Made by a program: the position numbers and the translations under genes | Origin: an uncultured Candidatus Kuenenia sp. | GTDB lineage: Bacteria; Planctomycetota; Phycisphaerae; Sedimentisphaerales; CAMDDF01 | Direction: 5' to 3' | Length of the DNA stretch: 55,158 nt | Assembly: GCA_964542055.1 (NCBI GenBank) | Contig: CAZITB010000001.1 | Location: forward strand, 1 to 55,158 | In this document: positions 1,656 to 20,059 of the stretch, piece after piece | How the letters are laid out: every line of letters starts with the position of its first letter | How positions within the stretch are numbered: position 1 is the stretch's first letter | Notes under the pieces: generated by a model | Databases searched by the model: none | What the model was told of the DNA's origin: nothing | What the model saw: only the letters and a program-made list of their open reading frames with translations

Positions 1656-2879
1656 TCAAATAGAACTGAAATAGTTAAGTGAATCTTTGAACGGCTTCAA
1701 AGCCCTCTCAAAAATACCAAGCGAATATGAAATGCAAACACCGTAATTGGTAATTGGCACATTTGCGGATTTGCATTTCATTATTCGTGAAAGCATTTCC
1801 CGCCTGTTTGTCATACAACCGCCGCACTGAATGACCAGCGCATAATCCGAAAGATTATCAGGAAAATCATGCCCCTGACAGACATCGAATTCCAGCTTGC
1901 AACCAGTAAACTGCCTCAGCCATCTTGGAATTTTAACCCTGCCGATATCATCAGCTATAGGGTGATGCGTACAGGATTCTGCTATCAGAATTTTGTCCCC
2001 GCTCTTAAGATAATCGATCTTCAGCGCCCCATTTACAAACGTATTCAAATCACCCTTATACCTTGCAAACAAAATCGAAAACGAAGTCATCGGGATTCCA
2101 TCCGGTGTGTCTGCCGAAACTTTCAAAAATGCTTGAGAATCCGTAATCACTATCGCAGGCGGCATACTCAACTTGCTTAAAGCATCCTTAAGCTCCCGCT
2201 CTTTGACAACTACACAATATGAATCATTGTCCAGTAATTCACGTATTGTCTGCACCTGAGGCTGAATCAATCTCCCTTTCGGCGCCTCCTTATCGATCGG
2301 AACCACCAAAACCGCCATTTCACCCGGCTTAACAAGATCGCTTACAATAGAAGGATTGTTCAAAAACTCCGCAGGGGTTGATTTAATCAATGCCTGCCTC
2401 AGCTCTGTTATCCCTTTATTTTCGATAGCCGTCGCCAAAACCACCGGAACATTTTCACTTTTCAATTTAGTGACCAAATCCTCGGACGGTTCAGCGATAT
2501 CAGACTTGTTAAAAACCACGATGACAGGAATTTCAAATTTCTGCAGTTTCTCTTTAATAGTATCTTCGAACTGCCCCCACTGACCTTCGCTTGCCACAAT
2601 GATTCCAATATCAGTTCGATCGAATATCTGCCTTGTTCTTTCTATTCTTTTCTCACCCAGCGCCCCAATATCATCCACCCCTGCAGTATCAATAAACAGC
2701 ACCGGTCCAATAGGCAAAAGCTCCATCGGCTTTTCCACCGGATCCGTCGTTGTTCCCGCAACTTCAGAGACTATCGAAACAGACTGGCGAGTTATCGCAT
2801 TTAATAGCGAAGATTTACCTGCGTTTCGCCTGCCGAAAATTCCAATATGTAGCCTTAAAGATTTAGGTGTCTTTCTCAT
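1656..2879 (-). CDS. hydF: [FeFe] hydrogenase H-cluster maturation GTPase HydF
   Basis: N-terminal P-loop GRRNAGKSSLLN with NKSD and DTAG GTPase motifs. C-terminal Cys/His cluster-binding region (CTHH ... QCGGC). Sits in a cluster with hydE and hydG. Confidence 0.9.
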   Translation of the reverse strand: MRKTPKSLRLHIGIFGRRNAGKSSLLNAITRQSVSIVSEVAGTTTDPVEKPMELLPIGPVLFIDTAGVDDIGALGEKRIERTRQIFDRTDIGIIVASEGQWGQFEDTIKEKLQKFEIPVIVVFNKSDIAEPSEDLVTKLKSENVPVVLATAIENKGITELRQALIKSTPAEFLNNPSIVSDLVKPGEMAVLVVPIDKEAPKGRLIQPQVQTIRELLDNDSYCVVVKERELKDALSKLSMPPAIVITDSQAFLKVSADTPDGIPMTSFSILFARYKGDLNTFVNGALKIDYLKSGDKILIAESCTHHPIADDIGRVKIPRWLRQFTGCKLEFDVCQGHDFPDNLSDYALVIQCGGCMTNRREMLSRIMKCKSANVPITNYGVCISYSLGIFERALKPFKDSLNYFSSI

Positions 2880-4276
2880 TTTTTTATGTTAAACCCCAAT
2901 TTCGTTACTGCTTCAGGACTGATCATTTGCTCAAACTCATGAGCAGTCAAAATCTCTTTTTCGATAACAACCTGCTTTACAGTCTTATTTCCCGATGCAG
3001 CTAGCTGAACCACTTCCTCAGCTTTTTTATAGCCTATCCGCTCAATCAAAGCCGTTACCACAGCTGTTGAACTTTGTATATGCTGTTGGCACTTGTCCCG
3101 ATTAACTTCAATTCCGCTTATGCAATTTTTGGCAAGTACGCTGACTGCTTGTTTCAAAATAGATATTGAATGAAGCAAACAATCAGCTATCAAAGGCATA
3201 AATTGATTCAATTCTAAATTCCCAGCAGATGCCCCTTGAAAAATCGCCCGATCATAAGCATCAACCATAATAGCCGCTTGCGATACCGCCTCCGGAATTA
3301 CAGGATTAACTTTGCCCGGCATTATCGAAGAACCCGCCTGTTTAACCGGCAGCATAATTTCGCCTATACCCGCATCAGGGCCCGAAGATAGAACCCGCAA
3401 ATCATTCGATACTTTCAACAGCGAACTAGCCAGCCCTTTCAAAATACCCGAAACCTCAACGAAAACATCACAGTTTTGAGTATTATCGATTATATTTTCA
3501 GCCCGGCCAAGCGACAAACCAGTCAAGTTCTTTAATTCATCAACCACTTTAAAAATATATTGCCTGGGCGCTCCCAATCCCGTACCTATTGCGGTTCCTC
3601 CAAGATTTACCACCCTCAGCCTTTCACAGCATTTATATATTCGCCACCGATCCCTTGCAAACGCTTCCCCATACGCAGAAAACTGACGCCCCACCGTAGT
3701 CAAAACCGCATCCTGTAATTGTGTTCTTCCAACCTTAACGATATCGGCAAACTCATGTTCCTTCTGTTGACATGTTTCAGTTAAACCAATAACCTCATTT
3801 TCCAATTCATTAAGCAAAAAAATTGCTGCTGTCTTCAAACTTGTCGGATAAGCATCATTAGTGGATTGGTGGAGATTGACAGTACCGATAGGATCAATAA
3901 TATCATACCTGCCGATTTCCTGCCCCATTATCTGCAAAGCCCGGTTGGCTATCACTTCGTTCACATTCATATTGGTCGATGTCCCCGCACCTCCTTGCAA
4001 CGCATCAACCAGAATATGCCCGTCCAGCATACCAGCTATCATTTCATTACATGCCTGCTCAACAGCTGAAAAAATCTTTTCTTCAATAAACCCAAGCTCA
4101 TAATTAACCCTTACAGCCGCTAGCTTAACATAACCAAAGCCGCTGATTAGCTTCGGATGAACCATGCGACCGCTAATCGGAAAATTCTCCACCGCCCTTG
4201 CGGTATGAATCCCGTAAAGTACATCTCTGGGCAACTGCATTTCACCTAGCAAATCTTTTTCAATTCTACATTCCAT
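2876..4276 (-). CDS. aspA: aspartate ammonia-lyase / class II fumarase family lyase embedded in the hyd maturase cluster
   Basis: 466 aa with the family signature GSSIMPGKVNP and the TQLQDAV motif. Its stop overlaps the hydF start by 4 nt, and its start abuts the hydG stop. Confidence 0.75.
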   Translation of the reverse strand: MECRIEKDLLGEMQLPRDVLYGIHTARAVENFPISGRMVHPKLISGFGYVKLAAVRVNYELGFIEEKIFSAVEQACNEMIAGMLDGHILVDALQGGAGTSTNMNVNEVIANRALQIMGQEIGRYDIIDPIGTVNLHQSTNDAYPTSLKTAAIFLLNELENEVIGLTETCQQKEHEFADIVKVGRTQLQDAVLTTVGRQFSAYGEAFARDRWRIYKCCERLRVVNLGGTAIGTGLGAPRQYIFKVVDELKNLTGLSLGRAENIIDNTQNCDVFVEVSGILKGLASSLLKVSNDLRVLSSGPDAGIGEIMLPVKQAGSSIMPGKVNPVIPEAVSQAAIMVDAYDRAIFQGASAGNLELNQFMPLIADCLLHSISILKQAVSVLAKNCISGIEVNRDKCQQHIQSSTAVVTALIERIGYKKAEEVVQLAASGNKTVKQVVIEKEILTAHEFEQMISPEAVTKLGFNIKK

Positions 4277-5698
4277 TTAGAAACACATATCCCTATTATC
4301 TGTGTTTTTAATAATTTCTAATCTCTCGATAACCTTGGATTTGATATCGCCCTCAGGCAGCTTTTCAAGCTCATCTTTTATAAGCTTTTCACCAATCTTA
4401 CGAGTTTTTTCCGAAGCATAGTCCACAAGATATTCCTCCAAAGTTGTCAATGCATTTGGTGTGCAGTACCTTTTAATAAAACCAGGTATCGCAAATTCCA
4501 TAAAATGCTCACCGGTTCTGCCAAGCCGATAACAAGATGTACAAAAACTCGGCACATAACCATCCTGCATCAGTTCCGCCATAACTTCATCCAGACTCCG
4601 AATATCTCCAAGCGAAAACTGCTCTTTCTCCATAACCTGCGCATCACCAGCTTCGGTATATCCGCCAAGCTCGATCCTGCTGCCGGCATCTATTTGCGAC
4701 ACGCCAAAAGCCATAACCTCCCTTCGAAGTTTCGGCTTTTCACGTGCAGTCAGAATCAAACCGGTATAAGGCACCGCCAATCGTAAAATAGCCACCAGCT
4801 TCTTAAAATCATCATCATTTACAATATGATCTGTAACAATGTCGGCGCCGCTTGCAGGCTGCAGCCTTGGAAAACTAATCGTATGAGGCCCTACTCCATA
4901 AGTCCTCTGCAAAAACAGCGAATGTGCAACCAGACCAAGCACCTCAAATCTCCAGTCATAAAGCCCTATCAGCGCGCCTATTCCGACATCATCACAGCCC
5001 CCTTCAAACGCCCGGCTAAGCCCATCAAGCCTGTAAAGATAATCACCTTTCCTGGTCTTTTCAGGATGATATAACCGGTAAGCCTGCTTGTTATAAGTTT
5101 CCATAAAAATCTGGTATGTTCCGATGCCCGCCTGTTTAACGATCTTGTAACCCTCAACATTCAAAGGAGCCGCGTTTATATTAGCCCTGCGAATCTCTCC
5201 CGTGCCGCTCTTAATACTGTAAACATTTTTAACAGTCTTGGCGATAAACTCCGGATCATAATCCACATGCTCACCGAAAACCAGGATCAACCGTTTATGC
5301 CCGGCATTTTCTAATGCAACAACCTGTCCGGAAATTTCTTCTTCGCTTAGCGTTCGCCTGTACGCATCCGGATTTGATATCCTGAAACTGCAATATTTAC
5401 AATCATTAACGCATTTGCTGCCAATATAAAGAGGGGCAAAAAGAACTATCCTGTTTCCATAAACAGTTTCCTTGAGCGTGCGAGCCGCATCAAATATTTC
5501 CTCGACCAGTTCCTTATCAATGGTATTAACCAACACAGCCGTTTCTTCAACAGTAAGTGCCTCTTTGGAAAGGCTTTTACTTATTATTTCTCGCACACGT
5601 TCTTTGGACACATTCTCATTATTCAAAAGACCGTGCAAATAATCATCATCTATAAAATCGACCGCATTAGCGGAAAGTTTTTTTTCATTCTCAAACAT
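4277..5698 (-). CDS. hydG: [FeFe] hydrogenase maturase HydG (radical SAM tyrosine lyase)
   Basis: Radical-SAM motif CVNDCKYC plus the C-terminal Cx2Cx22C motif (CTSCYRLGRTGEHFMEFAIPGFIKRYC). 473 aa. Confidence 0.92.
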   Translation of the reverse strand: MFENEKKLSANAVDFIDDDYLHGLLNNENVSKERVREIISKSLSKEALTVEETAVLVNTIDKELVEEIFDAARTLKETVYGNRIVLFAPLYIGSKCVNDCKYCSFRISNPDAYRRTLSEEEISGQVVALENAGHKRLILVFGEHVDYDPEFIAKTVKNVYSIKSGTGEIRRANINAAPLNVEGYKIVKQAGIGTYQIFMETYNKQAYRLYHPEKTRKGDYLYRLDGLSRAFEGGCDDVGIGALIGLYDWRFEVLGLVAHSLFLQRTYGVGPHTISFPRLQPASGADIVTDHIVNDDDFKKLVAILRLAVPYTGLILTAREKPKLRREVMAFGVSQIDAGSRIELGGYTEAGDAQVMEKEQFSLGDIRSLDEVMAELMQDGYVPSFCTSCYRLGRTGEHFMEFAIPGFIKRYCTPNALTTLEEYLVDYASEKTRKIGEKLIKDELEKLPEGDIKSKVIERLEIIKNTDNRDMCF

Positions 5699-6749
5699 AA
5701 TTCTCCTGATGTTTTTTTAAATACTTTACTGAACTACCTCTGCCCTGTCCCACTGTCCTGCCGATTGCCTTAATCCTGTTGTGAATCTCCTCGTGAAAAC
5801 TATCGCATTCATTCACGCAAACCTTTTTCGGGTATATCGAGTAAAGCTTTCTAAACTTTTTAGGCGAAACATTCGGCATCACAACATTAGCACCTCTTGA
5901 CAAGGCTTTTTCATAGCCGTCAACCGGATTCAACGTCGCCAAAGCTGTCGTCGCAGGTATATTCGTCTCGGGACAAATTATTCGCGCCAGGGCATAAGCT
6001 TTATAAGTTGTTATTTCATCCGCTGGAACCTGCTGATCGGACAACATCAACTCAGCGGCATTTTTTCCTAAAATTGTATTCTCATCAGGAACATAAGGCC
6101 CCAACCCGATCATATGTAGGTCAAGAGTTCTAAACAACTCGATATCATCTGCTAAAGATTCATAGCTTTGCCCCGGAATACCAACCATTACTCCGCTGCC
6201 AACCTCATAATCCAGCTTTTTTAAAATCTCTAAAAGCTCTATCCTATGAACCTTGGAACCGGGATGAATCTTATCAAAAAGTTCACGATCAGACGTCTCA
6301 AACCTTAGCAGGTACCTGTCCGCACCTGCATCTCGCCAGAGCTTATAAACGCCCTGGTCCCATTCGCCTAAACTCAGAGTAATCGCAAAATTTCCGATCT
6401 CTTTGAGCTTTCTAATTATCCTGCTGACCCATTCCGGATCAATTGACTTGTCCTCACCCGACTGCAAAACCAAAGTATTATAGCCGTACTTTTTAGCTGA
6501 ATTTCCGCACTCGATTATCTCTTCCTCGCTGAGCCGATACCTTTCAATACTTTTATTTGAAGCATTCAAATTGCAGTACAAACATCCCCTAGAACAAATA
6601 TTAGAAACCTCGATCAACCCCCGCAAATGAACCTCATTACCAACTTTCTGACGCCTGACATGATCGGCCATATTCCAAAGCTCGTCCAGCCTCGCTTGGT
6701 CCTGCTCTCTAAGCCAGCGTAATATTTGACCTCGGTCCATTACCGACAC
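5691..6749 (-). CDS. hydE: [FeFe] hydrogenase maturase HydE (radical SAM)
   Basis: Radical-SAM motif CSRGCLYC near the N-terminus. 352 aa, BioB-like fold. Overlaps the hydG start by 8 nt. Confidence 0.88.
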   Translation of the reverse strand: MSVMDRGQILRWLREQDQARLDELWNMADHVRRQKVGNEVHLRGLIEVSNICSRGCLYCNLNASNKSIERYRLSEEEIIECGNSAKKYGYNTLVLQSGEDKSIDPEWVSRIIRKLKEIGNFAITLSLGEWDQGVYKLWRDAGADRYLLRFETSDRELFDKIHPGSKVHRIELLEILKKLDYEVGSGVMVGIPGQSYESLADDIELFRTLDLHMIGLGPYVPDENTILGKNAAELMLSDQQVPADEITTYKAYALARIICPETNIPATTALATLNPVDGYEKALSRGANVVMPNVSPKKFRKLYSIYPKKVCVNECDSFHEEIHNRIKAIGRTVGQGRGSSVKYLKKHQENYV

Positions 6750-6752
6750 CTG

Positions 6753-7880
6753 CTACTTAACATCAAAAAGTTCTACTCTAAAAGTCGAACCAACGTCCGG
6801 CTCACTTTCAACCTTCGCATCTCCGTTATAAAACGTCGCCAGCTTCTTAACAATTGAAAGCCCCAACCCAGAGCCAAGAATCTTATGCGTCTTTTGATTT
6901 TTGATCCTTACAAAATCCTTAAACAGTTTAGCCGCCTCTTCCTTGCTCATGCCGATACCTGTATCAGAGACCACAATTATAAGCTTATCGTCTTCAAGTC
7001 GAATATTCAAATCTACCCGCCCATTATCCTTATTGTACTTAACCGCATTTGAAAGCAGATTATTGAGAATAATTTGGATTTCACTTGGGTCAGCATGAAA
7101 ATAAATATCTCCCTCAATATCCTTATTGATCTGGATATTCCGATCTTTGCCCATGATTGCAACATTTTCAAGACTTAATTCCGCAATCTCATTTATATTA
7201 ACTTCCTTGATCTCACGTTTCTTTTGCTTCGATTCGATCCTGGTCATATCCAAGAGATCGAAGATCAATTTCTGCATTCCCTCCAAGCGAATAAGCGACC
7301 TGTCAATGATATGATCATAAGCAGCAGTATTATCGCCCAAATCCTTATTCTTGATAATGTTTAAATAACCCTCGATCGCCGCCAAAGGCGATTTTAATTC
7401 ATGGGCTAAAACTGAAATAAACTCAAATCTCAGCCGCTTCTTATCTTCAGCCATCTTTCTGGCCTGCCGTTGAAAGATCAATCGGCTTGAAGCTTTTTTA
7501 ATCATATTTTTAAGTTCAGTCGGTGTAAATGGCTTAGCCAGAAAATCATAAGCACCGTTTCGTGTCGCCTCAACCGCTGTTTCCAAAGAAGCATAAGCTG
7601 TAATCATTATCGCCAGAATATCTTTGCTTTTAAGATCTAATTTTTTGAGCAAATCCAGTCCTGTCATCCCGGGCAGCTTATGATCTAAAAGCAAAATATT
7701 AGGACAATCATTCTCAATCATCTCGAAGCCAATTTCCGCATTTTCGGCACTGGTAACTTCAAAGCTTACTTCCTGTCCCACATCCGGCAAATCAACAGTG
7801 AACTTCGACAAGGCTCTTTCAATTCCCGTACGCATTCCTGATTCATCATCGATAATGAGAATTTTCAGGATATCAGTCAT
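6753..7880 (-). CDS. hybrid receiver-histidine kinase (N-terminal REC, then HisKA + HATPase)
   Basis: REC motifs (IIDDE, LLLDHKLPGMTG, AKPF) are followed by the H-box SVLAHELKSPL and N/G boxes (LLSNAVKYN, DTGIGM, GSGLGLSIV). Confidence 0.85.
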   Translation of the reverse strand: MTDILKILIIDDESGMRTGIERALSKFTVDLPDVGQEVSFEVTSAENAEIGFEMIENDCPNILLLDHKLPGMTGLDLLKKLDLKSKDILAIMITAYASLETAVEATRNGAYDFLAKPFTPTELKNMIKKASSRLIFQRQARKMAEDKKRLRFEFISVLAHELKSPLAAIEGYLNIIKNKDLGDNTAAYDHIIDRSLIRLEGMQKLIFDLLDMTRIESKQKKREIKEVNINEIAELSLENVAIMGKDRNIQINKDIEGDIYFHADPSEIQIILNNLLSNAVKYNKDNGRVDLNIRLEDDKLIIVVSDTGIGMSKEEAAKLFKDFVRIKNQKTHKILGSGLGLSIVKKLATFYNGDAKVESEPDVGSTFRVELFDVK

Positions 7881-8265
7881 TATATTTCTCCAGCAGAAGA
7901 TCTATTTCATGCTTCAACTGCTCATAACGCAAAGGTTTCGAAAGAAACGCGTCAGCCTTGATCCATGAATGCTCTTCAGGGGTTCTTGCCTCGAAATCCA
8001 TCCCGGTATCGCTGGTTACCGCTGTAACTATTATCACCGGAATATCAGGGTCTTTCTGCTTGATATGGTACGCAAGCGCAAAACCACCGTCAGCGTTTTC
8101 CATCATCAAATCAACTATAGCCAAATCAGGCACAGTACTTTCAAGCAATGCTTCTGCTTCAGCCTGGCTGCACGCCTTTACTATTTCAAAATCTTTTTGG
8201 AGCATTATTTCCATCTGATCCAAAAAATCAGGATCATCGTCAACTAACAATACCTTCTTTGCCAT
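7873..8265 (-). CDS. single-domain response regulator (REC only)
   Basis: 130 aa with VLLVDDDPD, IVDLMM and SKPL receiver motifs and no output domain. Overlaps the downstream REC-HK start by 8 nt. Confidence 0.85.
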   Translation of the reverse strand: MAKKVLLVDDDPDFLDQMEIMLQKDFEIVKACSQAEAEALLESTVPDLAIVDLMMENADGGFALAYHIKQKDPDIPVIIVTAVTSDTGMDFEARTPEEHSWIKADAFLSKPLRYEQLKHEIDLLLEKYND

Positions 8266-8296: not shown

Positions 8297-10339
8297 TTAA
8301 TTCAAAGTTTCTTCTATTGTTATATCTTTTTTCGTCTCGTCTTTTTTCTTGGGCAGCACCACCGTAAACGTCGTGCCGGTGGGCCCTTTTTCAGCATCAG
8401 CATTCGATTCTACCAGGATATCGCCATTGTGCATTTTTACAATACCATAAGTTACCGCAAGGCCAAGACCTGTACCCAGCCCCATCTCCTTGGTTGTAAA
8501 AAACGGCTCAAAAATCTTCGATAGAATATCTTCCCTGATTCCGATTCCAGTATCACTTACTTTTATTTCAATTCTATCGTCTTTATCGTTAAGTTCAATG
8601 CTCAAATCTCCCTTTTCGTTCATGGCTGAAATCGCATTAGAAACAAGGTTAGTCAAAACCTGTCCGATTTGATCGCTATCAATATATACAATATTATCGT
8701 CTAGATTATTTTCAATTTTTATATGTATTCTTGGATCAGACCTGTATGTCTGAACGGTACGACAAATTAACTCATAAATATCCGTCGGATGAAGCATTAC
8801 TTTATTTTTACGTGCAAAATTAAGCAAACCTGAAACGATCTTCTTACACCTGTCTGCCTGCTCGGTTATAATTTGCAAATCATCGCTTACTTGCTGATTA
8901 TCCTTTAACTCATCGAGCAGCAAGTGGGCATACATCAAAACCACACCAAGCGGATTATTCACTTCATGAGCAATTCCCGCAGCAAGCTGACCCATACTCG
9001 CAAGCTTTTCGGACTGCATCAAAGCCTCCTGCGTACTGGCAAGCTGAGTATTCGAACTGGCTAGCTGCTTTATAGTCTTATGAAGCCGCTCAATTGTAAA
9101 CGGCAGACACATTTCACTTTCAGCTAAACCCTTCAATATCGCAACCGCATGTTCCCGGCAGGTATCATAACCGCATGCTCCGCAGTTAAGCTCATCTTCT
9201 TTAGTAAACTTGCCCATTCTATGCAAAACATCATCGAGAACGGTATCGACCGGTATTTGAATTCTTTGATCATACTTTTCAAATTTTCGCGTAAGATCAA
9301 GCCCTTTGAGATTTTCAACATGGGCTTTCCATTGCTCAATATCAAAATTCTCTCTTCTTGATCGCGCGAATTCGCTGATTTTAGCCTGGCGATTAAACCT
9401 CGGGTTTGAATTTGACATTCCAGGGCCCATTATACACCCGCTGCATGCCAGAACTTCTAACAATTTTACTTGAAGATCACCAGAATCGAACTCTTTAAAA
9501 GCATCGATATAGCTGCTGCCGCCCTCTACTGCGATAACTTCTCCCTGGACCAAATCATCATTGATTTCAGCTGCCTGAAACAGCCCTCTGCCAATTGGAA
9601 AAATTGCACCGGTGCCCGCATGAGGTCCATCAAATTCAGACTCTTCAACTTCGCCGGATGTAATACCAGCTTCATCTAGCATCTCTCTTAGCTCCGCAAA
9701 AGTTAAAACCGCCTCAACTTCATCAGGAAGATTAACGCTAGATGCTTCACCTTTTTTAGCAATACACGGACCAATAAAAACTATCTTCAAATCCTCGCCA
9801 TGAAACTTCTTTAATGCTCTTGCCATCGCCACCATAGGCGAAACTATAGGTGCCAGATTGCCAACAAGTTCAGGATGATATCTTTCAACGTAAGCAACTA
9901 TGGATGGGCAGGTCGTCGCGATAAAACGGCACTTCGGGTCACATTCGCTCAACAGCCTTTTATACGCCTCCGCAACTAAATCCGCACCAAATGCAACTTC
10001 ATTAACCAGGTCAAAACCTAACTTTCTCAGCATTGCGACCACGGCTTTATAATTATAATCAGTAAATTCAGCAGGAAAACTCGGAGCAACTATAGCTGCA
10101 ACCTTTACGTTTTCGCTTAATAACTTTTTTACTTGAGGCTTGGAATCCTGAATTTTCTTCGCGCTCTGACTGCAAACCCTTACACAGTTACCACAACCAA
10201 TACATCGCTGGGGAATCACCTCCGCCTGACCATCCGCGATCCGGATAGCTTTAGCGGGGCATTCACGAACACATGTAAAGCATATTCGACAATGCTCTTT
10301 GATCGTGGTTACCAATGGTTTATTATCAGAATCTTTCAT
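8297..10339 (-). CDS. [FeFe]-hydrogenase-like sensor domain fused to a histidine kinase (HydS-like, kinase-linked)
   Basis: From N to C: a 2x[4Fe-4S] ferredoxin ([23 protein letters not shown]), then an H-domain-like region ([28 protein letters not shown]). This is followed by a Cx2Cx4Cx16C motif ([26 protein letters not shown]), a coiled coil, the H-box AHEVNNPL and an HATPase (DTGIGI, GTGLGL). Confidence 0.8.
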
Positions 10340-10341: not shown

Positions 10342-12063
10342 TTATTTAACAACTTCTCTGCGACCGTATTTAGTATGTAAAAGCTCATGACTCTTATGGC
10401 TCAAAGGCTTGCCCAAAAATTCTTTATAAAGCTTCTCAATAGACTTATTCTTGTGCGACACACGAATAGGCTCATCCCTATCGATCTTATAAAGAGTTTT
10501 CATTCTTGCAGCAACCGCATCAGAATTAGCATTCAAAGGTTGACCGCCTCCAGCGATACACCCGCCCGGACATGTCATTACTTCGATAAAGTGAATATCG
10601 TCTCTGCCTTCTTTGATTTGATCAAGCAGCTTTGATGCATTACCAAGCCCGCTGACAACGGCGACACCTATTTCCATATCATTGACTTTAACCTTAGCTT
10701 CTTTGAGGCCTTTATTGCCGCGAACTTCTTTAACATTCAAATCTTCCATTTCTTTGCCGGTTAACAAGTAATGCGCCGTTCTAATCGCCGCTTCCATTAC
10801 TCCACCGCTTGAACCAAAGAGTTTACCCGCCGTCGAACGCTCACCAAAAGGATTATCAGCCAAAGACGGCTCAAGGTTATTCATATCAATTCCATAAAGT
10901 CTGATCAGTTCCGCAAACTCTCTTGTCGTCAAAACTACATCAACATCCTGTGTAGCATTTCTGCCCATTTCAGGCCGCTCAGCCTCAAATTTCTTGGCTG
11001 TACAAGGCATCACAGAAACACTGTATATCTTCTTAGGGTCTATTCCCTCATTTTCAGCATAATAACTTTTTATAATCGCCCCTAACATCTGCTGCGGGCT
11101 CTTACAGGTCGAAAGATTTTCCATAAACTCAGGATAATGCTGTTCTACGAACTTGATCCATCCCGGTGAACAGCTTGTAATCATTGGTAATTTACCGCCG
11201 GTCTTAATTCGTTCAACAAGCTCTGAACCTTCTTCCATAATTGTCAAATCAGCGGAAAAACTCGTGTTAAACACTTTGGCAAAACCAAGGTTTCTAAATG
11301 CTGTTGTCATTATTCCATCTACATCAACACCGGATTTCATCCCGAATTCCTCTGCCAAACTAACTGAAACCGCCGGAGCATGCTGAACAACAACATGCAG
11401 ATCAGGGTCCTTCAAAGCATTAATAACATCTTTAACATTGCTCTGCTCTTTCAAAGCACCTGTAGGACATGCCAGAATACACTGACCGCAATTTATGCAG
11501 CTCGAAACGTTCAATCCCTGGTCAAACGCGGTGCTTACAACAGATTTACTTCCTCGACCGGTAAAATCTATCGCCGAAACACCTTGCACTTCTTCACAAA
11601 TTCTTACACATCTGCCGCAAAGGATACATTTGCTTGGATCGCGTACGATCGAAGGGCTTGAATTATCAATTTTATAATTATTTTTTTCACCCACATAAAC
11701 TCGTTCGCGTACACCGAAATCAGCCGCAAGTTTTTGAAGTTCGCAGTTATTGTTTCTCACGCAAAACAAACAGTCATCCGGGTGGTCTGCCAAAAGCAGC
11801 TCAACAATACTTTTTCTTGCCAGCATGACCCTTTTCGAATGCGTCTGCACTTTCATTCCTTCAGCTACCGGGTAAGCACAACTCGGCACCAAACCCGGGA
11901 CACCTTCGATTTCTACAACACACATTCGACAAGCACCGCTCGGAGCAAGCCCTTCTATATAGCAAAGCGTTGGAATTTCTATACCCGCTCTCCTAAGAGC
12001 CGCCAAAAGCATTTCATCTTTACGTGCGTCAATTTTTTTGCCGTTTACTTCTAAATTTATCAT
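10342..12063 (-). CDS. hydA: [FeFe] hydrogenase catalytic subunit (M3-type, HydABC-type partner)
   Basis: N-terminal 2Fe-2S region, a His/Cys cluster (HPDDCLFCVRNNNC) and two 4Fe-4S motifs. H-cluster motifs are MPCTAKKFE and EVMTCPGGCIAGGGQP. The L1 motif reads TSCSPGW rather than TSCCPxW. Confidence 0.9.
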   Translation of the reverse strand: MINLEVNGKKIDARKDEMLLAALRRAGIEIPTLCYIEGLAPSGACRMCVVEIEGVPGLVPSCAYPVAEGMKVQTHSKRVMLARKSIVELLLADHPDDCLFCVRNNNCELQKLAADFGVRERVYVGEKNNYKIDNSSPSIVRDPSKCILCGRCVRICEEVQGVSAIDFTGRGSKSVVSTAFDQGLNVSSCINCGQCILACPTGALKEQSNVKDVINALKDPDLHVVVQHAPAVSVSLAEEFGMKSGVDVDGIMTTAFRNLGFAKVFNTSFSADLTIMEEGSELVERIKTGGKLPMITSCSPGWIKFVEQHYPEFMENLSTCKSPQQMLGAIIKSYYAENEGIDPKKIYSVSVMPCTAKKFEAERPEMGRNATQDVDVVLTTREFAELIRLYGIDMNNLEPSLADNPFGERSTAGKLFGSSGGVMEAAIRTAHYLLTGKEMEDLNVKEVRGNKGLKEAKVKVNDMEIGVAVVSGLGNASKLLDQIKEGRDDIHFIEVMTCPGGCIAGGGQPLNANSDAVAARMKTLYKIDRDEPIRVSHKNKSIEKLYKEFLGKPLSHKSHELLHTKYGRREVVK

Positions 12064-12078
12064 TATAAACCCTTATTT

Positions 12079-13962
12079 TTACTCAATAATAACAGCGTCA
12101 AATGGACAAACCTGTTTACAGTTTCCGCAACCGATACACAGTTCATCAACGATATAATGAGGAGCCTTTCTAACACCCTTGATCGCGTCAACAGGGCACT
12201 TCTTGGCACACAAGGTACAACCTTTACACTTTTCCTCATCAATCTTATAATTCAGCAATTCAGTACAAACTCCGGCTGAACATTTTCTCTCATAAATATG
12301 ATCTTCATATTCTTTACGGAACCATCGCAAGGTACTCAAAACCGGATTAGGAGCTGTTTGACCAAGCCCGCAAAGACTCGTATCTTTAATCACATTGGCA
12401 AGCCTCTGCAAATTCATAATGCCCTTAAACCTGACAAGTGCATCTTTACCTTTTTCGTTCTTATGGCTTTGAGTTATCCTGTGCAAAATCTCAAGCATTC
12501 TCCGGGTACCTTCACGGCACGGAATACATTTTCCGCAACTTTCCCGCTGGATAAAATCCATAAAGAACTTCGCGACATCGACCATGCAGGTTCCTTCATC
12601 CATAACTACCATACCGCCCGAACCCATCATCGCGCCAACCGTTTTAAGCGATTCATAATCGATCTGAATATCGATATGCTCAGCAGGAATACATCCGCCC
12701 GAGGGTCCGCCCATCTGAACCGCCTTGAACTTCTTATCATTTTCGATACCGCCGCCGATATCATTGACTATTTCCCGAACAGTAGTTCCCATTGCAACTT
12801 CGATCAAACCGGTATTCTTGACTTTACCGCTTAACGCAAAAACTTTAGTACCTTTGCTTGTCTCTGTTCCGATTGAATGGAAAAACTCAGGACCCTTGGA
12901 AATGATCTCAGGCAGGTTTGCCAGTGTTTCGACATTATTGATGACCGTAGGCTTATTAAATACTCCCTGAACCGCTGGATACGGTGGCCTCGGCCTGGGC
13001 ATACCGCGTTTACCTTCGATACTGTGAATAAGAGCTGTCTCTTCACCGCAAACAAAAGCACCGGCACCCTTTTTGATTACTATATTCAACTCGAAACCGC
13101 TTCTAAGGATATTCTCACCAAGCAAACCAAACTTCTTCGCTTCCTCGATAGCCTTCTCTAACCTCTTAATTGCCAGAGGATATTCTGCACGGATATAAAT
13201 ATAAGCCTTTGTAGCCCCAATCGCGTAAGCAGCTATCGCAATACCTTCCAGCAGCCTGTGCGGATCGCCTTCGATTACCGCCCTGTCCATAAACGCACCC
13301 GGATCACCTTCATCAGCATTGCATACCAGGTACTTCTGGTCCGCCGAAGCATTCAAGGCGAACTTCCACTTCCTTCCAGCAGGAAATCCGCCGCCGCCGC
13401 GGCCTCTCAATCCGCTTGATTCAACCAGGTCACAAACTTCAACTGGTGTGTGATTCGAAATTATCTTCGCAAATCCCTTGTAACCGCCCTTGGCTGCATA
13501 TTCCTCGATACTGGTCGGGTCAATCAGTCCGCAGTTCTTAAGCACTAGCCGAGTCTGAGACTTAAAGAACGGATGTTCATTGATAAACACAACACCATCC
13601 CAGCCCTGCGTTTCTTCCGATAGCTTCTGCTGATACAAAACGCTTTCACTCAACGGCTGACCGTCCAAAACACTCTTTAGAATCTCTTCTACATTATCAT
13701 TCTTAACTCGCTTAAACGCCAGCCTGTTCTTGCCCGGTACTTCAACTTCCATGATCGGCTCAACTGTACAATAACCGATACAGCCAACCTCAACCACTTC
13801 GGCATTTACTTTTTGAGCATCAATAAATTCATTGATCTTTTGCAATGTTTCACCGGCACCGGCACCAAGCCCGCAGGTTCCGGTTCCAAGATAGATATAT
13901 GTTTTCGCCTGGTCTTTTTCTTTGACAGGTATATTGATAATAGGTTCATTAACTTTGGTCAT
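12079..13962 (-). CDS. hydB: NADH-binding flavoprotein subunit of bifurcating hydrogenase (NuoF-like)
   Basis: 627 aa. Thioredoxin-like 2Fe-2S N-terminus, NuoF core (GRGGGGFPAG, NADEGDPGAF, CGKCIPCREG) and a C-terminal 2x[4Fe-4S] (CKGCTLCAKKCP, CIGCGNCKQVCP). Confidence 0.9.
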   Translation of the reverse strand: MTKVNEPIINIPVKEKDQAKTYIYLGTGTCGLGAGAGETLQKINEFIDAQKVNAEVVEVGCIGYCTVEPIMEVEVPGKNRLAFKRVKNDNVEEILKSVLDGQPLSESVLYQQKLSEETQGWDGVVFINEHPFFKSQTRLVLKNCGLIDPTSIEEYAAKGGYKGFAKIISNHTPVEVCDLVESSGLRGRGGGGFPAGRKWKFALNASADQKYLVCNADEGDPGAFMDRAVIEGDPHRLLEGIAIAAYAIGATKAYIYIRAEYPLAIKRLEKAIEEAKKFGLLGENILRSGFELNIVIKKGAGAFVCGEETALIHSIEGKRGMPRPRPPYPAVQGVFNKPTVINNVETLANLPEIISKGPEFFHSIGTETSKGTKVFALSGKVKNTGLIEVAMGTTVREIVNDIGGGIENDKKFKAVQMGGPSGGCIPAEHIDIQIDYESLKTVGAMMGSGGMVVMDEGTCMVDVAKFFMDFIQRESCGKCIPCREGTRRMLEILHRITQSHKNEKGKDALVRFKGIMNLQRLANVIKDTSLCGLGQTAPNPVLSTLRWFRKEYEDHIYERKCSAGVCTELLNYKIDEEKCKGCTLCAKKCPVDAIKGVRKAPHYIVDELCIGCGNCKQVCPFDAVIIE

Positions 13963-14442
13963 TTATGACACCTTCTTTCGATATATTTCCAAAATTCTTT
14001 TTACATCATCCGGGTTGACATTCGCATGGAATTGTCCATCGATACAAATAACAGGAGCAAGCCCGCACGCACCTATACAAGCCACAACTTCCAAACTGAA
14101 ATTACCGTCTTTGGTCGTCTCGCCCGCATCGATGGCCAATTCACTTTTGAGTGCTTCCAGAACCTTCGCCGATCCTTTTACATGGCAAGCCGTTCCCCGA
14201 CATACCTGTATTTCGAATTTCCCCGGCTTATTGAACCTGAACTGATTATAAAATGTAGCAACTCCGTAAATCTTAGCCGCTGACAGATTTAAATGCTGCC
14301 CAATTTCGATAATGGCTTGCTTTGATAAATAACCATCCAATTGCTGAACTTCCTGCAGAATCGGGATCAAACTGTCCCTTTTCGCATCTGTGTACTTTTT
14401 CAAAACTTCCTGTGCTTTAGTTGTTACCACTTTTTTCTCCAT
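13963..14442 (-). CDS. hydC: NuoE-like 2Fe-2S subunit of bifurcating hydrogenase
   Basis: NuoE motifs LIPILQEVQ, VCRGTACHVKG and CIGACGLAP. Start moved to the internal MEKKVV, since the tracked ORF start at 14502 lies deep inside rex. The start remains uncertain because the RBS is weak. Confidence 0.85.
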   Translation of the reverse strand: MEKKVVTTKAQEVLKKYTDAKRDSLIPILQEVQQLDGYLSKQAIIEIGQHLNLSAAKIYGVATFYNQFRFNKPGKFEIQVCRGTACHVKGSAKVLEALKSELAIDAGETTKDGNFSLEVVACIGACGLAPVICIDGQFHANVNPDDVKRILEIYRKKVS

Positions 14443-15070: not shown

Positions 15071-15093
15071 TTAAAATTCCCTCTTCTACAATA

Positions 15094-15111
15094 TTGTTAT
15101 TAGGTTAACAG
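15094..15111. promoter_or_regulatory. candidate Rex operator
   Basis: TTGTTAT-TAGG-TTAACAG matches the TTGTTAA-N4-TTAACAA variant of the Rex box at 16 of 18 positions, counting the 4 unconstrained spacer bases (12 of the 14 specified half-site positions). It lies 24-41 nt upstream of the rex GTG. Extra TTGTGAA/TTGTTAA half-sites lie at 15119-15140. Confidence 0.4.
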
Positions 15112-15130
15112 CGTTACAATATTCACAATA

Positions 15131-15159
15131 ATATTAACAAATACGCACAAGATCATCAA
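15131..15159 (-). promoter_or_regulatory. candidate promoter of the rex-hyd operon (TTGATG - 17 nt - TAATAT on the minus strand)
   Basis: Hexamers read on the reverse complement, with the Rex-like sites immediately downstream. Pattern only. Confidence 0.25.
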
Positions 15160-15250
15160 GAAGTTTTGGGTAATTTTTAAAAATATTGTGAAAAAAAAGA
15201 CGATTTAATAAATAACATGACAATACAACGTTTGAAATATGCTTTTGTTC

Positions 15251-18949: not shown

Positions 18950-18961
18950 CAAATACAACCT

Positions 18962-19837: not shown

Positions 19838-20059
19838 TAGAAATCGAAATTTATAAAGAGAATCTGACCGGCAGAGTGCTTATCAAAAAATCTAATCTCT
19901 TATTCCAGCTAAACTTACACAGTATCGCTAAAAATTATAAACAGTAAAAGTATACGCGCACACTCGCAATGTCAATTTTTTTCTTTAATTTAACCATGGA
20001 AAATGTTATTTTAATCGCACAATTAGGTTTTTGTTAGTTTTAGTTATGGTTTGGAATCT

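What the first reader, a model, noticed from the sequence alone, without database searches (positions are those of the whole stretch)
6753..8265. Relay partners lack any output domain: a REC-only protein plus a REC-to-kinase hybrid
Immediately downstream of the sensor-kinase are a 130-aa stand-alone receiver and a 375-aa protein. In the latter, an N-terminal receiver precedes its own HisKA/HATPase core (H-box SVLAHELKSPL). The two genes overlap by 8 nt.

None of the three signalling proteins has a DNA-binding, enzymatic or HPt domain that I can recognise. The signal must therefore either branch to an unlinked regulator or act through protein-protein contacts. The only transcription factor in the block is Rex.

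This kinase, receiver, receiver-kinase cascade embedded in a hydrogenase operon is the part I would call uncharacterised.
Basis: partly seen in the sequence, partly recalled or inferred. Interest (0 to 1): 0.65.

Follow-up and report, generated by a model that had tools for sequence, protein, structure and literature searches.

The report
Hydrogen-sensor kinase relay with Rec-HK
Two signalling genes inside a hydrogenase operon, a stand-alone receiver and a receiver-controlled histidine kinase, are real and travel with a hydrogenase-like sensor kinase across several phyla; they most likely form a three-step phosphate relay that reports hydrogen, and its final target is still unknown.

Summary
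Window 7873-8265 (-) encodes a 130-aa receiver-only protein (REC130). Window 6753-7880 (-) encodes a 375-aa REC-HisKA-HATPase protein. The genes overlap by 8 nt (ATGACTGA). Neither protein has room for a hidden domain.

No DNA-binding, enzymatic or HPt output exists in the operon. However, the 375-aa protein belongs to a known class, the Rec-controlled histidine kinases (prototype LvrB), whose kinase is the receiver's output.

The sensor kinase (HydS-HK, [FeFe] group C1 type) lies directly upstream of the Rec-HK in 28 of 29 orthologous loci long enough to judge. REC130 is present in 24 of 29, at varying positions.

A paralogous REC-only + Rec-HK module sits in [NiFe] group-3b-like hydrogenase loci with a Cache-HAMP kinase. 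There the Rec-HK receiver carries the same specificity residues as the co-resident NtrC-type regulator.

Best model (confidence about 0.5): HydS-HK, then the Rec-HK receiver, then the Rec-HK kinase, then REC130. REC130 would act through protein contacts. Covariation was inconclusive and no phosphotransfer has been measured.

Verdict: a new variant of a known kind, of moderate interest.

The parts
7873..8265 (-). REC130: stand-alone receiver (130 aa), phospho-acceptor D52. It belongs to a tightly conserved REC-only family with the signature DDDxDF / DLMME..DGGF / SETGxEFDAxTxEExSW / KP[IV]RFEQL.
   Evidence: Pfam Response_reg 5-121 only. The 120 best homologues are all REC-only, at 57-77% identity. 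Invariant residues are listed. The AF2 model is a canonical receiver, except that the sequence-conserved alpha4 region (residues about 81-100) has low pLDDT of about 53-56.
6753..7880 (-). Rec-HK: receiver-controlled histidine kinase (375 aa). It has an NtrC-like receiver (D66) with an extra beta-hairpin, one long helix that runs from REC alpha5 into DHp alpha1 (H160), and a CA domain with intact ATP boxes.
   Evidence: Pfam. Invariant D11, D12, D66, T94, K116, H160, N273/N274/N278, D306/G308/G310 and G336/G338/G340. AF2 helix 120-177. Best PDB fold hit is LvrB 8vc9 over the full length, followed by HK853.
8297..10339 (-). HydS-HK: hydrogenase-like sensor fused to a histidine kinase (680 aa), the presumed phosphodonor of the relay. 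Order of parts: Fer4, H-domain, 4-Cys FeS domain, coiled coil, HisKA (H458), HATPase. There is no PAS domain.
   Evidence: Pfam. Invariant H-cluster ligands C144, C192, C299, C302 and K195; FeS-domain C386, C389, C394, C411; H458. The kinase core is closest to AtoS and ZraS.
10342..14502 (-). hydC (13963-14502 as listed; the real start is probably the ATG at about 14442), hydB (12079-13962) and hydA (10342-12063). This is a HydABC-type NADH-linked [FeFe] hydrogenase, the enzyme whose product or substrate the sensor is presumed to read.
   Evidence: Pfam: 2Fe-2S_thioredx; Complex1_51K with NADH_4Fe-4S; Fe_hyd_lg_C with Fe_hyd_SSU.
14417..15070 (-). rex: redox-sensing repressor. It is the first gene of the operon and the only transcription factor in it.
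   Evidence: Pfam Put_DNA-bind_N plus CoA_binding. Same position in L001, L003, L018, L021, L093, L096, L098 (N-terminal DNA-binding domain not called there) and L099.
15094..15111 (-). Rex-box-like palindrome cTGTTAAcctaATAACAa, 41 nt upstream of the rex start. It is the likely operator for autoregulation of the whole operon.
   Evidence: Sequence. It has 2 mismatches to TTGT[GT]AA-N4-TT[CA]ACAA. Comparable boxes (0-3 mismatches) lie upstream of rex in 11 of 11 loci tested.
1656..6749 (-). hydE (5691-6749), hydG (4277-5698), an aspartate-ammonia-lyase-like gene (2876-4276) and hydF (1656-2879). These H-cluster maturases are packed directly behind the Rec-HK gene, with gaps or overlaps of 0-8 nt.
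   Evidence: Pfam. NCBIfam aspartate ammonia-lyase subfamily, 618 bits against a cutoff of 510. Coordinates. No more terminator-like sites than expected by chance inside the block.

Best explanation
The three genes form a three-tier phosphorelay that reports H2 status.

Proposed steps:
1. The H-cluster domain of HydS-HK reacts with H2. Through its C-terminal [4Fe-4S] domain and coiled coil, it shifts the fused AtoS/ZraS-type kinase between kinase and phosphatase states (inferred).
2. HydS-HK phosphorylates D66 of the NtrC-like receiver of the Rec-HK (inferred from conserved adjacency and from the paralogous [NiFe] loci).
3. As shown for LvrB, receiver phosphorylation lets the long linker helices form a coiled coil and frees the CA domain, so the Rec-HK autophosphorylates on H160 (by analogy).
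4. The Rec-HK, a PhoR/WalK/HK853-type kinase whose H+4 residue is S or A rather than the T/N usually needed for phosphatase activity, passes the phosphate to D52 of REC130. The REC130 gene overlaps the Rec-HK gene (inferred).
5. REC130~P has no output domain. It acts through protein-protein contacts made by its strongly conserved alpha4-beta5 face on a target not encoded in the operon (speculative).

Transcription of the operon itself is probably set by Rex through a Rex box upstream of rex. The relay would therefore add an H2-dependent layer on top of NADH sensing.
For: Adjacency:
- HydS-HK lies directly upstream of the Rec-HK in 28 of 29 orthologous loci with at least 2.6 kb of upstream sequence (counting L096).
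- The same holds in two loci reached from HydS-HK homologues instead.
- The trio occurs in Planctomycetota, in contigs labelled Marinimicrobia, and in one contig labelled Pacebacteria.

Kinase and receiver types:
- The HydS-HK kinase core matches AtoS (4e-61) and ZraS best; both have NtrC-family partners.
- The Rec-HK core matches PnpS, PhoR, WalK and HK853 best.
- The Rec-HK receiver matches NtrC1, DctD and NtrC receivers.
- The best PDB hits of REC130 include YycF, RpaA and RR468, the partner of HK853.

Paralogous [NiFe] loci:
- The Cache-HAMP kinase has a core 39-46% identical to the HydS-HK core and the same HE[VI]NNPLG H-box. In a subset of the loci an NtrC-type regulator follows it directly.
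- The co-resident Rec-HK receiver carries the same alpha1 specificity residues as that regulator (A-M/I-R-D-S-C-x-Q-I/V-L). One kinase very likely serves both.

Exclusion argument:
- REC130 alpha1 (D13, F14, Q17, M18) is unlike the Rec-HK receiver alpha1 (G15, M16, G19, I20).
- The two receivers are therefore unlikely to share one donor, and the operon holds exactly two kinases.

Conserved pairing of REC130 with the Rec-HK:
- REC130-type genes sit next to Rec-HK genes in both hydrogenase contexts, often overlapping them.

Rec-HK architecture and precedent:
- AF2 shows REC, a 58-residue continuous helix, DHp and CA.
- The top fold hit is LvrB.
- LvrA to LvrB to LvrC is an experimentally shown HK to Rec-HK to RR chain (PMC13269768).

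No hidden domain, and no fused output among close REC130 relatives.
Against: - No phosphotransfer has been measured. Every arrow is inferred.
- REC130 is absent from 5 of 29 loci that keep HydS-HK and/or the Rec-HK (L020, L023, L024, L025, L034). It is therefore dispensable, encoded elsewhere, or not the main target.
- Covariation at known HK-RR contact positions is inconclusive. With both locus types pooled: sensor x Rec-HK receiver z=2.4, sensor x REC-only z=0.3, Rec-HK kinase x REC-only z=1.4, Rec-HK kinase x own receiver z=2.1. With [FeFe]-type loci only: 1.44, 0.96, 0.79 and 0.58.
- The rule 'HE.NNP kinases pair with NtrC-type receivers' is not strict. In this same window the HDOD kinase (H-box HELNNP) sits next to an HTH_17-REC whose receiver is nearer the REC130 type.
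- The top NCBIfam hits of REC130 (GlrR, PgtA) are NtrC-family regulators, with weak scores.
- In the Lvr precedent the final regulator LvrC is unlinked and has an output domain. The same could hold here.
- H2 sensing by any HydS-type protein is still unproven.
Confidence: 0.5

Rival explanations
1. Branched pathway with an unlinked output. HydS-HK phosphorylates the Rec-HK receiver. The Rec-HK then phosphorylates a response regulator encoded elsewhere that has an output domain (DNA-binding, anti-sigma or similar), as LvrB does with LvrC. REC130 is a side branch: a phosphate sink or an allosteric modulator of one of the kinases (DivK- or LovR-like), not the output.
For: - The partner of LvrB is unlinked and was found only by profiling 50 response regulators.
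- REC130 is missing from 5 of 29 loci while the Rec-HK stays.
- REC-only genes vary in number and position: 0, 1 or 2, before or after HydS-HK.
- Some [NiFe]-type loci have a full transcriptional output (an NtrC-type activator) alongside the REC-only + Rec-HK module. There the module does something other than the main output.
Against: - No candidate regulator with an output domain recurs near any of roughly 45 [FeFe]-type loci or in the NtrC-less [NiFe]-type loci.
- The REC130 family is very strongly conserved (mean 60% identity across phyla), including a surface outside the phosphorylation site. That is more than a simple sink needs.
- The REC130 specificity residues differ from those of the Rec-HK receiver, so a sink for HydS-HK is not the obvious role.
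Confidence: 0.3
2. Feedback or sink module. The Rec-HK receiver mainly drains phosphate from HydS-HK or competes with an unlinked NtrC-type regulator. Together with REC130 it shapes the timing or threshold of the response (adaptation or ultrasensitivity) and does not carry the signal forward.
For: - In [NiFe]-type loci of layout (i) the REC and Rec-HK genes lie at the end of the hydrogenase operon, downstream of Cache-HK and NtrC. The Rec-HK receiver shares the specificity residues of NtrC, which is the arrangement expected for a competitor.
- In the window the relay genes are co-transcribed with the hydrogenase genes they might regulate.
Against: - The kinase half of the Rec-HK is under strong purifying selection. 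H160 and all ATP-binding boxes are invariant, which a pure sink would not need.
- No NtrC-type regulator is present in the [FeFe]-type loci.
- No sigma-54 promoter lies upstream of the operon.
Confidence: 0.12
3. The two genes belong to an unrelated pathway and merely sit inside the hyd operon.
For: Orthologous Rec-HK genes occur without any hydrogenase gene nearby in L002 (labelled Latescibacterota) and L020.
Against: - The trio is conserved with hydCBA and hydEGF in dozens of contigs from several phyla.
- A paralogous module accompanies a second, unrelated hydrogenase class.
Confidence: 0.03

Closest known systems
Lvr pathway of pathogenic Leptospira: LvrA (hybrid HK), LvrB (Rec-HK), LvrC (REC + anti-sigma); PMC13269768, PMC5863495
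   Same: - A sensor kinase is followed by a Rec-DHp-CA kinase whose only input is its own receiver.
- Neither of these two proteins has a DNA-binding domain.
- The window's Rec-HK model has the same REC, long helix, DHp, CA layout, and LvrB (8vc9) is its best fold hit.
   Different: - Only about 20% identity, so it is not an orthologue.
- The kinase core here is PhoR/HK853-like. The NCBIfam LvrB model matched HydS-HK rather than the Rec-HK among the hits shown.
- The upstream sensor is a hydrogenase-like H2 sensor, not a PAS hybrid kinase.
- The candidate acceptor is a linked REC-only protein, not an unlinked REC-anti-sigma protein.
- The function is linked to hydrogen metabolism, not virulence.
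[FeFe] hydrogenase group C1, 'histidine kinase-linked (putative)' sensory hydrogenases (HydDB, PMC5037454)
   Same: - H-domain protein linked to a histidine kinase.
- It lies next to a bifurcating-type HydABC enzyme.
[quoted passage not shown]
   Different: - The class was defined on the hydrogenase-like protein only. The downstream REC-only and Rec-HK partners and their conservation are not part of the description.
- A 2024 survey in Hydrogenedentota could hardly find H-cluster motifs in its C1 proteins. Here all four Cys ligands and K195 are invariant.
- I did not run HydDB itself.
HydS of Thermotoga maritima (group C, PAS) and Thermoanaerobacter mathranii (group D)
   Same: - Fer4, H-domain and C-terminal 4-Cys FeS cluster.
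- The active-site surroundings are altered. Here the proton-relay Cys is replaced (T-T-C-P instead of T-S-C-C-P) and the position equivalent to Met353 is Gly (my reading).
- It lies next to HydABC.
   Different: - No PAS domain. The FeS domain is joined by a coiled coil directly to HisKA/HATPase, so the output is a measurable phosphorylation.
- The characterised HydS proteins are linked to Ser/Thr phosphatase/kinase genes or AraC-type regulators, and their signalling is untested.
HoxBC-HoxJ-HoxA (Ralstonia) and HupUV-HupT-HupR (Rhodobacter) H2-sensing systems
   Same: The logic is the same: a hydrogenase-like sensor controls a histidine kinase that governs hydrogenase-related functions.
   Different: - Those systems use a [NiFe] regulatory hydrogenase as a separate complex, a single kinase, and an NtrC-type DNA-binding regulator.
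- Here the sensor is of [FeFe] type and fused to the kinase, there are two kinases in series, and the locus has no DNA-binding regulator.
Multi-kinase networks with REC-only proteins (my own knowledge, not tested here): Myxococcus RedCDEF, Caulobacter DivJ/PleC-DivK, LovK-LovR
   Same: REC-only proteins act as terminal or modulating elements between several kinases, with no linked transcription factor.
   Different: There is no sequence-level relationship beyond the shared domains. None of these systems is tied to a hydrogenase sensor.

Membership tests
Rec-controlled histidine kinases (Rec-HK; prototype LvrB) | N-terminal receiver with a complete phospho-acceptor pocket as the only input domain | tested here: met
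   Pfam finds only Response_reg 7-128 before HisKA. D11, D12, D66, T94 and K116 are invariant in 37 homologues. The AF2 model shows no further domain.
Rec-controlled histidine kinases (Rec-HK; prototype LvrB) | Continuous helical linker (alphaS) joining REC alpha5 to DHp alpha1 | tested here: met
   The AF2 model has one helix spanning residues 120-177, followed by DHp alpha2 at 185-216. This is a model only; pLDDT is 66-86 along this helix.
Rec-controlled histidine kinases (Rec-HK; prototype LvrB) | Catalytically competent HK core (phospho-His and the N, G1, F, G2 boxes) | tested here: met
   H160, N273/N274/N278, D306/G308/G310, F320/F323 and G336/G338/G340 are invariant. HisKA and HATPase_c score above the Pfam cutoffs.
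Rec-controlled histidine kinases (Rec-HK; prototype LvrB) | Overall fold resembles full-length LvrB | tested here: met
   The Foldseek best hits are the six chains of 8vc9 (LvrB), with E 8e-23 to 8e-22, about 403 aligned columns and 20% identity. TM is only 0.37-0.38 because the domain orientations differ.
Rec-controlled histidine kinases (Rec-HK; prototype LvrB) | Receiver phosphorylation by an upstream kinase switches on autophosphorylation | not testable with these tools
   This needs biochemistry. It is inferred only from adjacency to HydS-HK and from the LvrB mechanism.
Stand-alone (CheY-like) response regulators | Single (beta-alpha)5 receiver with acidic pocket, T/S and K, and no output domain | tested here: met
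   Pfam Response_reg 5-121 of 130 aa. D9, D52 and K110 are invariant and D10 is at 90% or more; T81 was read by eye as T or S. The AF2 model has five strands and helices over residues 4-129, with a weakly predicted alpha4. The 120 closest homologues are all REC-only.
[FeFe] group C1 'histidine kinase-linked' sensory hydrogenase system | H-domain with H-cluster ligands, fused or linked to a histidine kinase | tested here: met
   Fe_hyd_lg_C 79-306, FeS 384-413, HisKA 449-511 and HATPase 554-665 in one protein. C144, C192, C299, C302 and K195 are invariant.
[FeFe] group C1 'histidine kinase-linked' sensory hydrogenase system | Assignment to subgroup C1 by the HydDB classifier or by phylogeny | not tested
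   No HydDB classifier or reference tree was available. The assignment rests on architecture and on the HydDB class description.
[FeFe] group C1 'histidine kinase-linked' sensory hydrogenase system | H2 binding changes kinase output | not testable with these tools
   No experimental data exist for any member.
His-Asp-His-Asp phosphorelay with HPt or Spo0B-type transferase | An HPt domain, or a degenerate kinase that cannot bind ATP, between two receivers | tested here: not met
   No HPt domain appears in any of the proteins. The Rec-HK keeps all ATP-binding boxes, so it is a true kinase and not a Spo0B-like transferase.
HoxJ/HoxA- or HupT/HupR-type H2-responsive two-component system | [NiFe] regulatory hydrogenase plus a kinase plus an NtrC-type DNA-binding regulator | tested here: not met
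   The sensor is of [FeFe] type and is fused to the kinase. There is no sigma-54 activator or HTH regulator in the operon and no sigma-54 promoter upstream. The resemblance is one of logic only.

The most novel reading that the evidence does not exclude
The REC130-type stand-alone receivers and their Rec-HK form a hydrogenase-dedicated relay module. It has been recruited independently to NADH-linked [FeFe] HydABC enzymes (with an H-cluster sensor kinase) and to [NiFe] group-3b-like enzymes (with a Cache sensor kinase) in at least six phyla.

Its end point would not be transcription. It would be a direct, phosphorylation-dependent protein contact of the REC-only protein with the hydrogenase or its electron-transfer partners. 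That would be a post-translational H2 feedback on hydrogenase activity.

Three observations hint at this. REC-only genes repeatedly sit as the first gene of a hydrogenase structural operon (L033, L035, L037, L038, L041, L042, L045, L047, L097, L099). The module co-exists with a complete Cache-HK/NtrC transcriptional system in some loci. The REC130 alpha4 face is strongly conserved but poorly predicted.
Probability: 0.15. Interest if true: 0.8.

Novelty: new variant of a known kind. Interest (0 to 1): 0.55.

Why it matters
- **An open question becomes testable.** Whether 'sensory' [FeFe] hydrogenases really sense H2, and how they pass the signal on, has been open since these proteins were first noticed; a 2026 paper still calls it untested.
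- **The read-out here is simple.** The sensor is fused to a kinase and its likely partners are encoded next to it. Three soluble proteins and a phosphorylation assay would therefore be enough to test H2 sensing and the signal path.
- **It may be a general way to couple H2 metabolism to signalling.** The same REC-only + Rec-HK module stands beside an unrelated [NiFe] hydrogenase class.
- **It would be a natural H2 biosensor part.**
- **It gives Rec-HKs an environmental example.** This class has so far been studied in a pathogen (LvrB) and is named in a plant pathogen (PhcR). This would be a widespread example from environmental bacteria.

Tried and rejected
1. **Hidden output domain: rejected.** Pfam covers both proteins end to end. 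The AF2 models show only REC, or REC-helix-DHp-CA. NCBIfam gives no equivalog name.

2. **HPt or Spo0B-like transfer role for the Rec-HK: rejected**, because all ATP-binding boxes are invariant.

3. **Sigma-54 promoter upstream of the operon** (which would point to an unlinked NtrC-type activator): none found in 15071-15250. Window-wide matches are no more than chance.

4. **Covariation (MI with APC) at known HK-RR contact positions, for all four kinase-receiver combinations.**
   - It leans weakly toward HydS-HK x Rec-HK receiver but is not significant. I treat it as inconclusive.

5. **Fused relatives of REC130 as a clue to its function.**
   - The profile search found 155 clusters at E<=1e-30.
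   - Full-length matches are REC-only or REC-REC tandems.
   - The few HTH or GGDEF fusions are multi-REC or partial matches and say nothing about orthologues.

6. **Genome-contig scan with the single protein:** it returned only one true orthologue (L003) because the peptide patterns were too specific. The metagenome scan with an alignment worked.

7. **Expression:** one run labelled metatranscriptomic has short contigs that lie on the Rec-HK gene (4 differences in 279 nt, and 17 in 236 nt) and on hydE. This is weak, because DNA may be present and the strain differs. It is not used as evidence.

8. **The HTH_17-REC regulator at 33720-34283 as the missing output: not favoured**, since it overlaps its own HDOD kinase gene.
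Full report
**1. What is there**

All relevant genes are on the minus strand and tightly packed. In order of transcription:

| Gene | Coordinates |
|---|---|
| rex | 14417-15070 |
| hydC | 13963-14502 |
| hydB | 12079-13962 |
| hydA | 10342-12063 |
| 680-aa sensor kinase (HydS-HK) | 8297-10339 |
| 130-aa receiver (REC130) | 7873-8265 |
| 375-aa receiver-kinase (Rec-HK) | 6753-7880 |
| hydE | 5691-6749 |
| hydG | 4277-5698 |
| aspartate-ammonia-lyase-like gene | 2876-4276 |
| hydF | 1656-2879 |

Gaps or overlaps between neighbours are 0-31 nt. Terminator-like sites inside the block are no more frequent than chance. A single transcription unit is therefore plausible.

- REC130 is Response_reg 5-121 and nothing else.
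- The 375-aa protein is Response_reg 7-128, HisKA 153-217 and HATPase_c 264-371.
- The 680-aa protein is Fer4, an [FeFe]-hydrogenase H-domain (79-306), a 4-Cys FeS domain (384-413), HisKA and HATPase_c.

The 8-nt overlap ATGACTGA is real. The H-box SVLAHELKSPL is present.

**2. Are the proteins functional, and is a domain hidden?**

In 37 homologues of the receiver-kinase, these residues are invariant:
- the acidic pocket (D11, D12), the acceptor D66, T94 and K116;
- the phospho-His H160;
- the ATP-binding N, G1, F and G2 boxes.

In 40 homologues of REC130, D9, D52, K110 and P111 are invariant and D10 is at 90% or more. A long stretch outside the active site is also conserved: DLMME..DGGF and SETGxEFDAxTxEExSWIKAD. 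T81 was read by eye from the alignment as T or S.

AlphaFold models:
- Receiver-kinase (mean pLDDT 81): a receiver with an extra beta-hairpin (28-45), one continuous helix 120-177 that runs from receiver alpha5 into DHp alpha1, DHp alpha2, then the CA domain.
- REC130 (mean pLDDT 87): a canonical receiver, but its alpha4 region (residues about 81-100) is poorly predicted although its sequence is conserved.

No residues are left over for a cryptic output domain.

**3. What kind of protein is the 375-aa one?**

The best structural match of its model in the PDB is full-length LvrB of Leptospira (8vc9; E about 1e-22; about 403 aligned columns). The HK853 kinase core comes next.

[quoted passage not shown] Phosphorylation of the N-terminal receiver by the upstream kinase LvrA makes the linker helices form a coiled coil. 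That frees the CA domain for autophosphorylation. LvrB then phosphorylates a separate regulator, LvrC (PMC13269768).

The window's protein therefore does not lack an output. Its receiver's output is its kinase. Only the end of the chain has no recognisable effector.

**4. Conservation with hydrogenase loci**

A metagenome scan with an alignment of homologues returned 80 loci. I mapped them with the window's proteins.

Among 44 loci that carry an orthologous Rec-HK (at least 44% identity):
- 29 have at least 2.6 kb of upstream sequence.
- 28 of those 29 have HydS-HK directly upstream. L096 is counted from its gene table. L020 is the exception.
- L002, labelled Latescibacterota, is a further orphan.

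A REC130-type gene is present in 24 of the 29. Its place varies:
- between HydS-HK and the Rec-HK, as in the window;
- between hydA and hydS;
- in both places;
- downstream of the Rec-HK only.

It is absent from L020, L023, L024, L025 and L034.

Pfam-annotated contigs give the same rex-hydCBA-hydS(HK)-REC-RecHK layout, in most cases followed by hydE, hydG and hydF. These were reached from REC130 homologues (labelled Marinimicrobia and Pacebacteria, plus one unnamed 135-kb contig), from a Rec-HK homologue, and from HydS-HK homologues.

Names attached to the homologues place the window's organism near Phycisphaerae, Sedimentisphaerales or Anaerohalosphaeraceae. Public runs that hold the sequence come from sediment, hypersaline-lake and microbial-mat metagenomes.

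**5. A parallel module beside a different hydrogenase**

The more distant Rec-HK relatives (30-40% identity; L049-L092) were unexpected.

At least 22 of these 42 loci show a four-gene [NiFe] hydrogenase. Its subunits are a Fer4_22 protein, an FAD/NAD protein, a small subunit and a large subunit. That is the group-3b gene order as I know it from Pyrococcus. The loci also hold a Cache-HAMP histidine kinase and one or two REC-only genes flanking a Rec-HK.

Three layouts recur:

| Layout | Gene order | Loci |
|---|---|---|
| (i) | CacheHK, NtrC-type activator, 4 hyd genes, RECa, RECb, Rec-HK | L049, L050, L056, L063, L069, L070 |
| (ii) | RECb, Rec-HK, RECb', 4 hyd genes, CacheHK; no DNA-binding regulator | L055, L061, L067, L068, L072, L082, L097; L076 in a different gene order (for L097) |
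| (iii) | CacheHK, NtrC, REC(s), Rec-HK, 4 hyd genes | L074, L079 |

Named members come from candidate division TA06, Terriglobales and Candidatus Hydromicrobium.

So 'sensor kinase + REC-only + Rec-HK next to a hydrogenase' is a recurring design, with two different sensors and two unrelated hydrogenase classes.

**6. Who phosphorylates whom?**

Four lines of indirect evidence point to the order HydS-HK, then the Rec-HK receiver, then the Rec-HK kinase, then REC130.

(a) *Kinase and receiver types.*
- The HydS-HK core is closest to AtoS and ZraS, whose partners are NtrC-family regulators. It shares the HE[VI]NNPLG H-box and 39-46% identity with the Cache kinase.
- The Rec-HK core is closest to PnpS, PhoR, WalK and HK853.
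- The Rec-HK receiver matches NtrC1, DctD and NtrC receivers.
- REC130 and the [NiFe]-locus RECb share their own signature: DDDPDF, D[LIV]MME, KP[VI].
- The best PDB hits of REC130 include YycF, RpaA and RR468, the partner of HK853.

(b) *Shared specificity residues in the [NiFe] loci.*
- The Rec-HK receiver has the same alpha1 specificity residues as the NtrC-type regulator encoded right after the Cache kinase: A-M/I-R-D-S-C-x-Q-I/V-L.
- Paralogous receivers in one genome normally diverge at these positions unless they share a kinase.
- The Cache kinase therefore very likely feeds both. By homology, HydS-HK feeds the Rec-HK receiver.

(c) *Exclusion.*
- REC130 alpha1 (D13, F14, Q17, M18) is very different from the Rec-HK receiver alpha1 (G15, M16, G19, I20).
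- They probably have different donors, and the operon offers exactly two kinases.

(d) *Gene arrangement.*
- The REC130 gene overlaps the Rec-HK gene, the classic regulator-then-kinase arrangement of PhoB/PhoR-type pairs.
- The Rec-HK follows HydS-HK, as in kinase-then-regulator NtrB/NtrC-type pairs. This point rests on my own knowledge of operon conventions.

*Caveats.*
- The type rule is not strict. In this very window an HDOD kinase with an HELNNP H-box sits next to an HTH_17-REC whose receiver is nearer the REC130 type.
- The top NCBIfam hits of REC130 are weak matches to NtrC-family regulators.
- Mutual-information tests at known contact positions were inconclusive:

| Pair tested | z, both locus types | z, [FeFe]-type only |
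|---|---|---|
| Sensor kinase x Rec-HK receiver | 2.4 | 1.44 |
| Sensor kinase x REC-only | 0.3 | 0.96 |
| Rec-HK kinase x REC-only | 1.4 | 0.79 |
| Rec-HK kinase x own receiver | 2.1 | 0.58 |

- Clade-level substitutions fit the model but do not discriminate. One clade (L037-L047) changes HydS-HK alpha1 at several positions together with G15-M16-R17 of the Rec-HK receiver. It also changes the Rec-HK H+7 (A to N) together with Q17-M18 of REC130.

One further detail concerns phosphatase capacity. HydS-HK has N at H+4, which suggests it is phosphatase-competent. The Rec-HK has S or A there instead of T/N. This suggests, from general knowledge of HisKA kinases, that it is mainly a kinase.

**7. 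Where does the signal end?**

This is unknown.
- No DNA-binding regulator recurs near any of roughly 45 [FeFe]-type loci or near the layout (ii) [NiFe] loci.
- Close relatives of REC130 are all REC-only or REC-REC tandems.
- There is no sigma-54 promoter upstream of the operon.
- A Rex-box-like palindrome lies 41 nt upstream of rex (15094-15111). Similar boxes occur in 11 of 11 related loci. Transcription of the operon itself is therefore probably under Rex (NADH/NAD+) control.

I commit to REC130~P as the last phosphorylated component, acting by protein contacts through its conserved alpha4-beta5 face. This last step is speculation. The LvrC precedent, an unlinked regulator with an output domain, keeps the branched rival alive at about 0.3.

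**8. Comparison with what is known**

[quoted passage not shown] I did not run HydDB.
- A 2024 survey of Hydrogenedentota noted C1 genes next to A3 hydrogenases but did not analyse partners.
- The biochemically studied HydS proteins (groups C and D) have no fused kinase, and their signalling is still untested in 2026.
- The Rec-HK is a member of a described class (section 3).
- The H2-sensing [NiFe] systems HoxJ/HoxA and HupT/HupR are analogous in logic only.
- I found no paper describing the HydS-HK, REC-only and Rec-HK trio or its [NiFe] counterpart. The library does not cover subscription-only journals.

**9. Verdict**

- This is a new variant of a known kind: a Rec-HK cascade wired to a hydrogenase-like H2 sensor, with a dedicated REC-only family.
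- It is notable for its conservation across phyla and its reuse beside a second hydrogenase class.
- Interest is moderate (0.55), mainly because it turns the open question of H2 sensing by [FeFe] sensory hydrogenases into a simple three-protein phosphorylation experiment.

Noticed in passing
L049-L092 (for example L070:1027-11098) and L097: A paralogous REC-only + Rec-HK module sits inside four-gene [NiFe] hydrogenase loci with group-3b-like gene order. These loci carry a Cache-HAMP kinase, with or without an NtrC-type sigma-54 activator. Named members come from TA06, Terriglobales and Ca. Hydromicrobium. Several loci (layout ii) have no DNA-binding regulator at all.
   Followed up: partly
window 2876-4276 (-); also L003, L023, L025, L026, L047, L095, L096, L099: An aspartate-ammonia-lyase-like gene is conserved between hydG and hydF (NCBIfam subfamily PRK12273, 618 bits against a cutoff of 510). 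Its role in H-cluster maturation, if it has one, was not examined.
   Followed up: partly
window 8297-10339 (-): HydS-HK keeps all four H-cluster Cys ligands and K195 but has T-T-C-P in place of the usual T-S-C-C-P, so the proton-relay Cys is lost. It has no PAS domain. The 4-Cys FeS domain is joined to HisKA by a predicted coiled coil.
   Followed up: partly
L047:11703-17483; similar in L033, L035, L037, L038, L041, L042, L045, L099: Downstream of the Rec-HK, many loci carry another REC-only gene as the first gene of a second hydrogenase set. That set is hydC', a short hydB' (398 aa, without the terminal Fer4 domains) and hydA'. In L047 a GAF-HisKA-HATPase kinase follows, a third kinase, and still no DNA-binding regulator.
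   Followed up: partly
window 33720-36528 (+): A separate two-component pair: an HTH_17-REC regulator (187 aa) overlapping an HDOD-HisKA-HATPase kinase (758 aa; H-box HELNNP). The HTH lies N-terminal to the receiver, which is an unusual order.
   Followed up: no
window 15094-15111 (-) and upstream of rex in L001, L003, L018, L021, L023-L025, L034, L093, L096: Rex-box-like palindromes (0-3 mismatches to TTGT[GT]AA-N4-TT[CA]ACAA) precede rex in all 11 loci tested. The boxes in L018 and L096 are perfect matches.
   Followed up: yes
L070:9116-9484 and L074:8628-9530 (RECa): The RECa proteins of the [NiFe] loci look like atypical or pseudo-receivers. They have DPD instead of DD at the acidic pocket and K-S instead of K-P. 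In some loci RECa seems to be fused to RECb as a tandem REC-REC protein.
   Followed up: no
L093:9681-9929 and L094:8244-8492: In the two contigs reached from a Marinimicrobia-labelled REC130 homologue, a small TM1266-like protein (82 aa) lies between the Rec-HK and hydE.
   Followed up: no
window 25231-27936 (-) and 20000-28000: A 901-aa protein carries an FGE-sulfatase domain and a Chlamydia-PMP repeat hit. It lies in a stretch with higher G+C (0.44-0.50, against about 0.41 elsewhere) and a weaker GC skew.
   Followed up: no
window 43958-45019 (-): A 353-aa GAF-PAS protein with no recognisable output domain lies next to an iron-siderophore-type ABC transporter (FecCD, ABC_tran, Peripla_BP_2).
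   Followed up: no
window 16076-18958 (-): A 960-aa FGAM synthase in which a PurS-like domain appears to be fused to PurL. The separate purQ (15251-16048) lies directly upstream of the rex promoter region.
   Followed up: no
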